From assembly GCA_000004985.1 (NCBI GenBank), contig GG739410.1: 1,476 nt of DNA, one strand, 5' to 3'. Shown here piece by piece: positions 1 to 1,476 of this stretch. Below the pieces are notes generated by a model. It made no database searches, was not told where the DNA came from, and saw nothing but the letters and a program-made list of their open reading frames with translations. Every line of letters starts with the position of its first letter. Positions within the stretch are counted from its first letter, which is position 1. The position numbers and the translations under genes were made by a program. Source of the DNA: Naegleria gruberi (taxonomy: Eukaryota).

Positions 1-116
1 ATAATTGTCTTAATTTGTGAGAAAAATTCTGAAACAAAAATCTGTCAAAAATGGCATAATCATCTCAGGAAAGACACCTTCTGTTTAAAATTTTTCTCTC
101 AAATTAAGACAATTAT
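1..116. repeat. Imperfect inverted repeat. Left arm 1-20 is ATAATTGTCTTAATTTGTGA and right arm 97-116 is TCTCAAATTAAGACAATTAT. The arms are 19/20 complementary, and the core 1-17 / 100-116 is a perfect 17-mer. The spacer is 76 bp and A/T-rich. The left arm abuts the window edge, so the repeat may extend upstream.
   Basis: I reverse-complemented 1-20 by hand and it matches 97-116 with one mismatch at position 18/99. A third ATTGT core in direct orientation sits at 119-123. Confidence 0.7.
52..60 (+). promoter_or_regulatory. Possible extended -10 element TGgCATAAT inside the inverted-repeat spacer. No convincing -35 is found. This is speculative.
   Basis: TG at 52-53, one base, then CATAAT at 55-60, which matches TATAAT at 5 of 6 positions. 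The nearest TTGACA-like hexamers are poorly spaced (19-22 bp). An alternative -10-like TGTAAT lies at 122-127. Confidence 0.2.
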
Positions 117-152: not shown

Positions 153-728
153 ATGCAATTGCGTCAGTATGATAATTTAGAAGATAAAGGAAATATTAAA
201 TTTACGAGTACACTATCCTTTCCTTTCACTGAACGAGCTGTCATGCGGTGTGTTGTTCTTGGCAGACACACGCAACCAACTGCAATAGCAAGAAAGAAGT
301 TTTGGTCAAATATTCCCTTATATAACTGCACAAATCTGTCAGTTTATGATTATATAAAATTAATTGCAGACCATCATGGTATTCCCCTTATTAGAGGCTA
401 CAAAGTTTATGTGTGGAACAAAACCAAGTACTTTGATTTCAATATAGAAAAAGTCAAGGAATCATACACTGATGAAAAGTTGTTTAATGAGTTGCAAACT
501 TTGAAATTCCAGAATATAATGAATGGGAACTATGTTCAAGAGTTGGTTCATAGTGATAAATCTGTTCTTCTTACAGATTTTTTCCAAATGGGAACCTTTA
601 GTGCTAAAAATCTTGACTGCTTCCTTATTGTTCACAAGATACAACAAGATGCAAAGAAAGAGTTATGGGATTTGTTTGTTGATATTGTAAGTTCAATTTC
701 TTTCTCTGATATTTATTCATCCATTTAG
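153..728 (+). CDS. Hypothetical protein of 191 aa with no family recognised. It is soluble-looking, with no signal peptide, no TM segment and no nucleotide-binding motif that I can see. It may be the N-terminal domain of a larger protease-containing protein (see findings).
   Basis: ORF from the supplied track. ATG 153 is the first start after the in-frame TAA at 138-140. It is preceded by a 12-nt pure-A tract rather than a Shine-Dalgarno sequence. Third codon positions are strongly A/T-biased, consistent with the rest of the window. The stop is TAG at 726-728. Confidence 0.6.
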   Translation: MQLRQYDNLEDKGNIKFTSTLSFPFTERAVMRCVVLGRHTQPTAIARKKFWSNIPLYNCTNLSVYDYIKLIADHHGIPLIRGYKVYVWNKTKYFDFNIEKVKESYTDEKLFNELQTLKFQNIMNGNYVQELVHSDKSVLLTDFFQMGTFSAKNLDCFLIVHKIQQDAKKELWDLFVDIVSSISFSDIYSSI

Positions 729-905
729 GAGAACAATGAAAACCAAACTAATCAACCTTCTTTAGCTGGAGGTAGAGGGACGAATCAACACGATAACAAA
801 GATAAAAAGAAAGCTAAAAATAGTCAAAACCTTATCTCACCTTATTCCGGGAGAAAAGAAATCAAAGACTTGTGGGAAAAATTGCAATCTGGAGGTGCTG
901 GAGAA
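729..905 (+). other. In-frame open segment immediately after the ORF1 stop. It is 59 codons long and contains no stop and no ATG or GTG. It encodes a polar low-complexity peptide, ENNENQTNQPSLAGGRGTNQHDNKDKRKAKNSQNLISPYSGRKEIKDLWEKLQSGGAGE. This is a candidate inter-domain linker of a gene interrupted by the TAG.
   Basis: Hand translation of frame 0 (same frame as 153-728). The first conceivable starts are TTG 870 and TTG 882. Codon third positions are A/T-rich like the flanking coding sequence. Confidence 0.4.
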
Positions 906-1476
906 GTGTATGACTTGAATAATGTAGTGTTACCTGATACACCTAAACCCCAATTTAACACTGCAAAGTTAGGATCAGAGAAACTACGTAGATTAATGGC
1001 TAGTACTGTTACTCGTTGTAACAAGGTCAATGGTACAGTTTTCCAAATTCGTGACACAATAATTAATGAAATTGGACACGGATTTTTCATATCTCCCTCA
1101 CACTTAGTTACATGTATCCATAACCTTCGTTTAGATAAACCAGATGAAATTGTGAAAGATATGACGGTTGAAAATGAGCTGTATATTTCATTCACGAACC
1201 AAACTGTGAAGACCAACTATAAGTTGCTTTATCCTAAAAAACTGAATGAAACAGTTTACAATGATTTCGACAATCTAGACGTTGCAATCTTAGAACTTGA
1301 TTTGACTGCCAAAGTGGAAAACAAAATTGACATATTTGACACTCCCACAGTTAATTTTATGAAATTTATTAATGATGCTGGAATTGTTATTAATCCAAAC
1401 CATCCATCTCTTCAACCGTCAGTTATTTATTATTATGATAATAATGATCCCTCTACACTTAATGAATCCATTCATG
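906..1476 (+). CDS. Trypsin-like (chymotrypsin-fold, S1 / Trypsin_2-type) serine peptidase, 5' partial. It runs off the window end. The start is uncertain. GTG 906 is chosen because GGAGG at 891-895 sits 10 nt upstream. Alternatives are TTG 870, ATG 996, or no own start at all if the frame is continuous with 153-728.
   Basis: Frame 0 is open from 729 to 1476. The motif NGTVFQIRDTIINEIGHGFFISPSHLVTCIHNL (1029-1127) resembles the GxGF...LVT(A/C)xH catalytic-His region of S1 peptidases. The motif NDFDNLDVAILELD (1260-1301) resembles the D[IV]A[LIV]L catalytic-Asp motif. The His-to-Asp spacing is 53 residues. No signal peptide is present at any candidate N-terminus. Confidence 0.55.
   Translation, partial: MYDLNNVVLPDTPKPQFNTAKLGSEKLRRLMASTVTRCNKVNGTVFQIRDTIINEIGHGFFISPSHLVTCIHNLRLDKPDEIVKDMTVENELYISFTNQTVKTNYKLLYPKKLNETVYNDFDNLDVAILELDLTAKVENKIDIFDTPTVNFMKFINDAGIVINPNHPSLQPSVIYYYDNNDPSTLNESIH

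What the first reader, a model, noticed from the sequence alone, without database searches (positions are those of the whole stretch)
153..1476. A single in-frame TAG splits what reads like one gene: unknown N-domain, linker, then trypsin-like peptidase
Frame 0 contains exactly one stop codon across 1,324 nt, the TAG at 726-728. Downstream of it the same frame stays open for 249 codons to the window edge. The 47 codons 729-869 contain no ATG, GTG or TTG and also no stop. By my rough base-composition estimate, a random frame in DNA this AT-rich hits a stop about every 12-13 codons. That makes 47 open codons unlikely by chance (order of a few percent). The 89 codons up to the first ATG at 996 are far less likely still. 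The intervening peptide is N/Q/K/G-rich like a flexible inter-domain linker, and its codons are A/T-biased at third positions like true coding sequence. No hairpin plus T-run terminator lies between 728 and the protease domain. Possible explanations are: (a) a nonsense mutation in a fused gene, making it a pseudogene or recently split; (b) a sequencing error; (c) programmed amber readthrough giving a short N-domain product and a long N-domain-protease product; (d) a TAG-recoded genetic context, as in some phages. I cannot distinguish these from this window.
Basis: partly seen in the sequence, partly recalled or inferred. Interest (0 to 1): 0.65.

Follow-up and report, generated by a model that had tools for sequence, protein, structure and literature searches.

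The report
Ordinary short intron in a Naegleria gene
The "in-frame stop codon" is the last three bases of a textbook 42-base intron in a gene of the amoeba Naegleria gruberi, and the public gene model already removes it, so the finding is ordinary.

Summary
The frame starting at ATG 153 has one stop, TAG 726-728, and is otherwise open for 441 codons to the window edge.

The window is a 1,476-bp Naegleria gruberi scaffold. This is a eukaryote with 33% GC and 1.7 exons per gene. Its only database relative is its own GenBank model, XP_002668038.1 / EFC35294.1 ("predicted protein, partial", 427 aa). That protein equals the translation of 153-686 joined to 729-1475 exactly.

The model therefore removes 687-728, a 42-nt phase-0 GT-AG intron:
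- Donor: GTAAGT at 687, the only GTAAGT on either strand of the window.
- Branch site: TCTGAT at 705-710, with the branch A 19 nt from the 3' end.
- Pyrimidine-rich tract, then acceptor TTTAG. The "TAG stop" is this acceptor.

A codon shuffle gives such an in-phase donor by chance in 0.6% of trials.

The "trypsin-like peptidase" label has no statistical support from Pfam, PDB, an exhaustive HMMER search or a small protease profile. The protein is an orphan.

Splicing itself is inferred from sequence signals. No transcript data could be reached.

Interest is low and the feature is already annotated.

The parts
153..686 (+). Exon 1 of the coding sequence. It runs from ATG 153 and encodes 178 codons ending ...ELWDLFVDI.
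   Evidence: Open frame. It equals residues 1-178 of GenBank model XP_002668038.1 (P0001) exactly.
687..728 (+). Predicted 42-nt phase-0 U2-type spliceosomal intron: GTAAGTTCAATTTCTTTCTCTGATATTTATTCATCCATTTAG.
   Evidence: Deleting exactly these bases reproduces P0001 at 427/427 residues. T content is 50% against 29-33% in the exons. T at codon position 1 is 57% against 18-24%.
687..692 (+). 5' splice site GTAAGT, which is fully complementary to the U1 snRNA 5' end.
   Evidence: It is the only GTAAGT on either strand of the window. A codon shuffle places an in-phase GTAAGT upstream of the stop in 0.56% of trials within 300 nt and 0.18% within 100 nt.
705..710 (+). Putative branch-point motif TCTGAT, with the branch A at 709.
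   Evidence: It fits the WCTRAY consensus (PMC2483917). A709 lies 19 nt from the 3' end of the intron, and the stretch between them is 73% pyrimidine.
726..728 (+). The 'in-frame TAG', which is the YAG 3' splice acceptor. A second in-frame AG at 730-731 makes a TAG|GAG tandem acceptor.
   Evidence: The alternative acceptor at 731 also keeps the frame open.
729..1476 (+). Exon 2 of the coding sequence: 249 codons that run off the end of the scaffold. It holds a low-complexity N/K/G-rich stretch and then a region with a weak protease-like motif (GHGFFISPSHLVTCIH ... DVAILEL).
   Evidence: Open frame. It equals residues 179-427 of P0001. It has no significant family match.

Best explanation
The window is a small nuclear scaffold of the amoeboflagellate Naegleria gruberi. 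It carries the 5' part of one protein-coding gene interrupted by a 42-nt, phase-0, U2-type GT-AG intron at 687-728.

The proposed mechanism is standard splicing:
- The spliceosome pairs U1 with GTAAGT at 687.
- It uses the A of TCTGAT (709) as the branch point.
- It cuts after the first downstream AG (728).
- This joins ...GAT ATT to GAG AAC... and yields one continuous ORF of at least 427 codons.

The 'TAG stop' is only the acceptor YAG read in frame. Because the intron length is a multiple of three, the frame looks unbroken in genomic DNA.

Shown: the organism name attached to the only database match, the identity of the spliced translation with the public model, and the splice signals with their improbability by chance.

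Inferred: that the intron is actually removed in vivo.

The encoded protein is a lineage-specific orphan of unknown function.
For: 1. The only database relative is 'predicted protein, partial [Naegleria gruberi]', XP_002668038.1 / EFC35294.1, on a contig of 1476 nt, which is the window length.
2. The translation of 153-686 joined to 729-1475 equals it at 427/427 residues.
3. Window GC is 32.4%. N. gruberi is 33% GC with 1.7 exons per gene, and a Naegleria study set its minimum intron length to 30 bp based on predicted genes (PMC8296547).
4. The donor GTAAGT is unique in the window. TCTGAT matches WCTRAY 19 nt from the acceptor, followed by a 73% pyrimidine tract and then TAG.
5. A codon shuffle gives P = 0.0056 for an in-phase GTAAGT ending at the stop's AG.
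6. The 42 nt lose the coding periodicity of the flanks and lie in the T-richest part of the ORF.
7. The region downstream of the TAG is clearly coding: 89 codons are open before any ATG (P about 9e-4), against 4 and 13 stops in the other frames.
Against: - No transcript evidence could be reached.
- The GenBank model is computational, and gene predictors can invent introns to step over errors, as documented for Entamoeba (PMC1950532).
- No homologue exists anywhere, so conservation cannot show that the 14 codons are absent from relatives.
- 42 nt is well below the N. gruberi mean intron length of 203 bp.
- The exon side of the donor (ATT) does not match the usual AG.
Confidence: 0.85

Rival explanations
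1. The intron in the public model is an annotation artefact. Under this reading, 687-728 is coding sequence carrying a real nonsense mutation (a pseudogene or recently truncated gene) or a base-calling or assembly error at 726-728. The gene predictor then stepped over it with a fortuitous GT...AG.
For: - The model is computational and labelled 'predicted protein, partial'.
- The scaffold is tiny (1476 nt), so it may be of low coverage.
- False introns that bypass assembly errors are documented (PMC1950532).
- The 14 codons contain no other stop, and their AT3 of 0.79 is not unlike coding sequence.
Against: - A perfect GTAAGT, unique in the window, sits in phase 39 nt upstream of the stop. It is followed by a WCTRAY motif at the right distance and a pyrimidine tract. 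This is unlikely to be coincidence (P about 0.002-0.006 for the donor alone).
- Composition and codon-position pattern shift within exactly this stretch.
- The errors documented for Entamoeba were frameshifts giving 3n+1 or 3n+2 introns, not 3n introns with a stop.
Confidence: 0.09
2. These are two independent adjacent genes that happen to be in phase: a 191-aa protein ending at TAG 728, and a second protein starting at ATG 996 or elsewhere.
For: ORF1 is a complete ATG-to-stop ORF of 191 aa. No homologue shows the two halves fused in another organism.
Against: - The 89 codons between the TAG and the first ATG are open in this frame only (P about 9e-4, with 4 and 13 stops in the other frames) and have coding-like composition.
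- A eukaryotic gene would need its own promoter and 5' UTR there.
- The splice signals explain the layout without coincidence.
Confidence: 0.03
3. The TAG is decoded. This could be programmed amber readthrough giving short and long products, or a TAG-reassigned genetic code (a contaminant from a recoded phage or protist).
For: There is a single in-frame TAG with coding sequence on both sides. This remains formally possible if the intron is retained.
Against: - The record is assigned to N. gruberi, which by established knowledge uses the standard nuclear code.
- There is only one TAG in 441 codons, whereas recoded genomes use the codon repeatedly.
- The context TAG-GAG-AAC does not fit the known CARYYA-type readthrough motif (my knowledge).
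- The 100 nt downstream have no unusual structure (z = -0.39).
- There is no similarity to any phage record or viral contig.
Confidence: 0.02

Closest known systems
Canonical U2-type (GT-AG) spliceosomal intron, short 3n phase-0 class carrying an in-frame stop
   Same: - GTAAGT donor.
- WCTRAY branch motif 19 nt from the acceptor.
- Pyrimidine tract and YAG acceptor.
- Removal restores one ORF.
- The host is an intron-containing eukaryote.
   Different: Nothing essential differs. It is short (42 nt against a mean of 203 bp in N. gruberi), and the exon side of the donor is ATT rather than AG. Splicing is not shown experimentally here.
Programmed UAG readthrough (for example tobamovirus or MuLV gag-pol type)
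   Same: One in-frame UAG separates an upstream domain from a downstream domain in the same frame.
   Different: There is no readthrough context and no downstream structure. A full set of splice signals brackets the codon, and this is a cellular eukaryotic gene.
TAG-reassigned genetic codes (recoded phages, some protists)
   Same: A TAG inside apparent coding sequence.
   Different: There is a single occurrence in 441 codons. The organism is assigned as N. gruberi. There is no phage or viral similarity.
PA-clan trypsin-like serine peptidases (Pfam Trypsin_2 / HtrA-like)
   Same: A GxGF-I...(V/L)T..H motif (GHGFFISPSHLVTCIH) is followed 53 residues later by DVAILEL. This resembles the His and Asp regions of HtrA-like proteases, and the mini-profile aligns the first motif there.
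   Different: - There is no significant match to Pfam, PDB or a protease mini-profile.
- The catalytic Ser region would lie beyond the window.
- The structure model is unusable (pLDDT 31).

Membership tests
U2-type spliceosomal intron | 5' splice site GT, ideally GTRAGT | tested here: met
   GTAAGT at 687-692 is the only copy on either strand.
U2-type spliceosomal intron | Branch-point motif (WCTRAY) about 10-40 nt upstream of the 3' splice site, followed by a pyrimidine-rich tract | tested here: met
   TCTGAT at 705-710. A709 is 19 nt from G728, and the stretch between is 73% pyrimidine. The consensus is from PMC2483917.
U2-type spliceosomal intron | 3' splice site YAG | tested here: met
   TTTAG ends at 728. 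The TAG 'stop' is the acceptor.
U2-type spliceosomal intron | Removal restores a continuous reading frame | tested here: met
   The spliced translation has no stop and equals XP_002668038.1 at 427/427 residues.
U2-type spliceosomal intron | The host is a eukaryote with spliceosomal introns | tested here: met
   The only database match is a Naegleria gruberi record on a 1476-nt contig. N. gruberi has 1.7 exons per gene (PMC8296547). GC is 32.4% in the window against 33% in the genome.
U2-type spliceosomal intron | The intron is absent from mature mRNA | not testable with these tools
   No transcript data could be reached. RNA-seq exists under PRJEB23822 (PMC6142364).
Programmed stop-codon readthrough | A stimulatory context or downstream RNA structure at the stop | tested here: not met
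   The context is TAG GAG AAC. The fold of 729-830 has z = -0.39.
TAG-reassigned genetic code | Recurrent in-frame TAG codons within genes | tested here: not met
   There is one TAG in 441 codons, and it coincides with a splice acceptor. Only one gene is available in this window.
PA-clan trypsin-like serine peptidase | Significant sequence or profile match to a trypsin-like family | tested here: not met
   Pfam gave no hit at E<=10. PDB gave no relevant hit. The mini-HMM scored 1.1 bits, with 126 of 2000 shuffles at least as good.
PA-clan trypsin-like serine peptidase | Catalytic triad His-Asp-Ser in that order | not testable with these tools
   Candidate His (TCIH) and Asp (LDVAIL) lie 53 residues apart (read). 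The Ser region would lie beyond base 1476.

The most novel reading that the evidence does not exclude
The 3n intron with its terminal in-frame stop could be retained in a regulated way. The gene would then yield both a 191-aa N-domain-only product (or an NMD target) and the full-length protein. That full-length protein would be a Naegleria-specific orphan carrying a highly divergent trypsin-like protease domain. Intron retention is reported as the dominant alternative-splicing mode in non-animal eukaryotes, including N. gruberi (PMC6142364). Nothing here tests this for the present gene.
Probability: 0.1. Interest if true: 0.2.

Novelty: already known. Interest (0 to 1): 0.05.

Why it matters
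It matters mainly as a caution for the scan. A window from a eukaryote that is read with prokaryotic expectations will show phase-0 introns of 3n length as "single in-frame stops splitting one gene".

The intron is already implied by the public gene model, so nothing new is learned about recoding or readthrough.

The only mildly interesting residue is that the protein has no detectable relative among about 1.8 billion representative proteins.

Tried and rejected
Searches that gave nothing:
- Pfam and PHROGs on both halves found nothing significant.
- blastn against phage records found no match.
- PDB sequence searches found nothing, or one irrelevant hit at E = 0.74.
- Exhaustive phmmer against 1.84 billion representatives found only the query itself.
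- Scans of metagenome and viral contigs for relatives found none.
- A look-up of contigs encoding P0001 found it not on record.
- A second word-indexed protein search with the C-terminal 169 aa found nothing. It did not even recover the self-hit, so that negative is uninformative.

Other dead ends:
- The AlphaFold single-sequence model had pLDDT 31 and was unusable, so no fold search was run.
Two earlier attempts failed on a command option.
- Rfam gave only sub-threshold miRNA-precursor-like hits on the upstream hairpin.
- Literature searches for a Naegleria-specific splice-site consensus or intron length distribution found none. The N. gruberi genome paper is not held.

Rejected readings: readthrough, recoding and two separate genes, for the reasons given under the rival explanations.

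Full report
**1. Observation**

The window is 1,476 nt with 32.4% GC. In the frame of ATG 153 the last upstream stop is TAA 138. The only later stop is TAG 726-728, and the frame then stays open for 249 codons to the window end.

After the TAG, the first in-frame start-like codons are:
- TTG at 870, after 47 codons.
- GTG at 906.
- ATG at 996, after 89 codons.

Base composition predicts one stop per 13.1 codons. Open runs of 47, 89 and 249 codons therefore have chance probabilities of 0.024, 8.7e-4 and 2.7e-9. The other two frames of 729-995 hold 4 and 13 stops. No terminator-like hairpin occurs in the window.

**2. What it is**

I searched the conceptual translation, with X at the TAG, against 5.8 billion proteins. 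There was one hit: P0001, 'predicted protein, partial [Naegleria gruberi]', 427 aa, on a contig of 1,476 nt. Its accessions are EFC35294.1 and XP_002668038.1. The window is therefore that N. gruberi scaffold.

P0001 differs from the raw translation only by lacking the 14 codons VSSISFSDIYSSI*. A script confirmed that translate(153-686 + 729-1475) equals P0001 at 427 of 427 residues. The public model thus treats 687-728 as an intron: GTAAGTTCAATTTCTTTCTCTGATATTTATTCATCCATTTAG.

**3. Anatomy of the intron**

- Donor: GTAAGT at 687. It is the only GTAAGT on either strand of the window, and it is a perfect match to the region that pairs with U1 (established knowledge).
- Branch motif: TCTGAT at 705-710. 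It fits the pan-eukaryotic WCTRAY consensus (PMC2483917). A709 lies 19 nt from the 3' end.
- Tract: the stretch between the branch motif and the acceptor is 73% pyrimidine.
- Acceptor: TTTAG, whose last three bases are the 'stop'.

The length is 42 nt (3n) and the intron is in phase 0. That is why the genomic frame looks continuous.

A codon-shuffle control kept the stop in place. It produced an in-phase GTAAGT, ending at the stop's AG, in 0.56% of 20,000 trials within 300 nt and in 0.18% within 100 nt.

The 42 nt are 50% T, against 29-33% in the exons. T at codon position 1 is 57%, against 18-24% in the exons, so the coding periodicity is lost. The stretch lies in the T-richest part of the ORF.

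A second AG at 730-731 gives a TAG|GAG tandem acceptor that would also stay in frame.

**4. Context**

N. gruberi has 33% GC, 1.7 exons per gene and a mean intron length of 203 bp. A Naegleria study set a minimum intron length of 30 bp based on predicted genes (PMC8296547). A 42-nt intron is short but within the annotated range.

3n introns that carry stops are a well-known class in gene prediction (PMC1950532).

**5. Mechanism and rivals**

Best explanation (confidence 0.85): ordinary spliceosomal removal of 687-728 gives one mRNA encoding a protein of at least 427 aa.

The identity with the public model and the strength of the signals are shown. Actual splicing is inferred, because no transcripts could be reached. 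RNA-seq exists under PRJEB23822 (PMC6142364).

Rivals:
- Predictor-made intron over a real nonsense mutation or a sequencing error (0.09). This is plausible in principle (PMC1950532), but it requires the full set of splice signals to be coincidental.
- Two genes in phase (0.03). The 89 ATG-less open codons argue against it.
- Readthrough or recoding (0.02). There is a single TAG, a standard-code organism, no stimulatory context, no structure downstream (z = -0.39), and no phage or viral similarity.

**6. The protein**

No homologue was found by any route:
- The word-indexed search.
- An exhaustive phmmer search of 1.84 billion representative proteins.
- Metagenome and viral contig scans.

Pfam, PHROGs and PDB gave nothing significant. 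The AlphaFold2 single-sequence model has pLDDT 31 and is unusable.

It scores only 1.1 bits, and 126 of 2000 shuffles scored as well or better. The would-be catalytic Ser lies beyond the window. 'Trypsin-like' is therefore an untested lead, not a finding.

**7. Novelty and verdict**

The feature is an already-annotated, canonical intron, so it is already known and of low interest (0.05). The most novel reading left open is regulated retention of this stop-bearing 3n intron in an orphan gene with a divergent protease (probability about 0.1, modest interest).

Noticed in passing
window 1-116 (arms 1-33 and 84-116): A 33-nt inverted repeat, 91% complementary with 50 nt between the arms, starts at the very first base of the scaffold, upstream of ATG 153. 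As single-stranded DNA it folds at -24.2 kcal/mol, with z = -7.4 against shuffles. Rfam gives only sub-threshold miRNA-precursor-like hits (28 bits against a gathering score of 90). It could be a foldback or MITE-like element, a promoter-region palindrome, or an artefact at the scaffold end.
   Followed up: partly
window 726-731: TAG|GAG forms a NAGNAG-type tandem acceptor. Splicing at 731 instead of 728 would stay in frame and drop one Glu codon.
   Followed up: partly
window 153-1476 (whole protein): The encoded protein has no detectable relative other than itself among 1.84 billion representative proteins, nor in the metagenome or viral contigs. It sits on a 1.5-kb unplaced scaffold and the gene runs off its end.
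   Followed up: yes
window 842-1216, minus strand: A 124-aa antisense ORF lies opposite exon 2. It is most likely a by-product of the composition of the sense coding strand and was not examined further.
   Followed up: no
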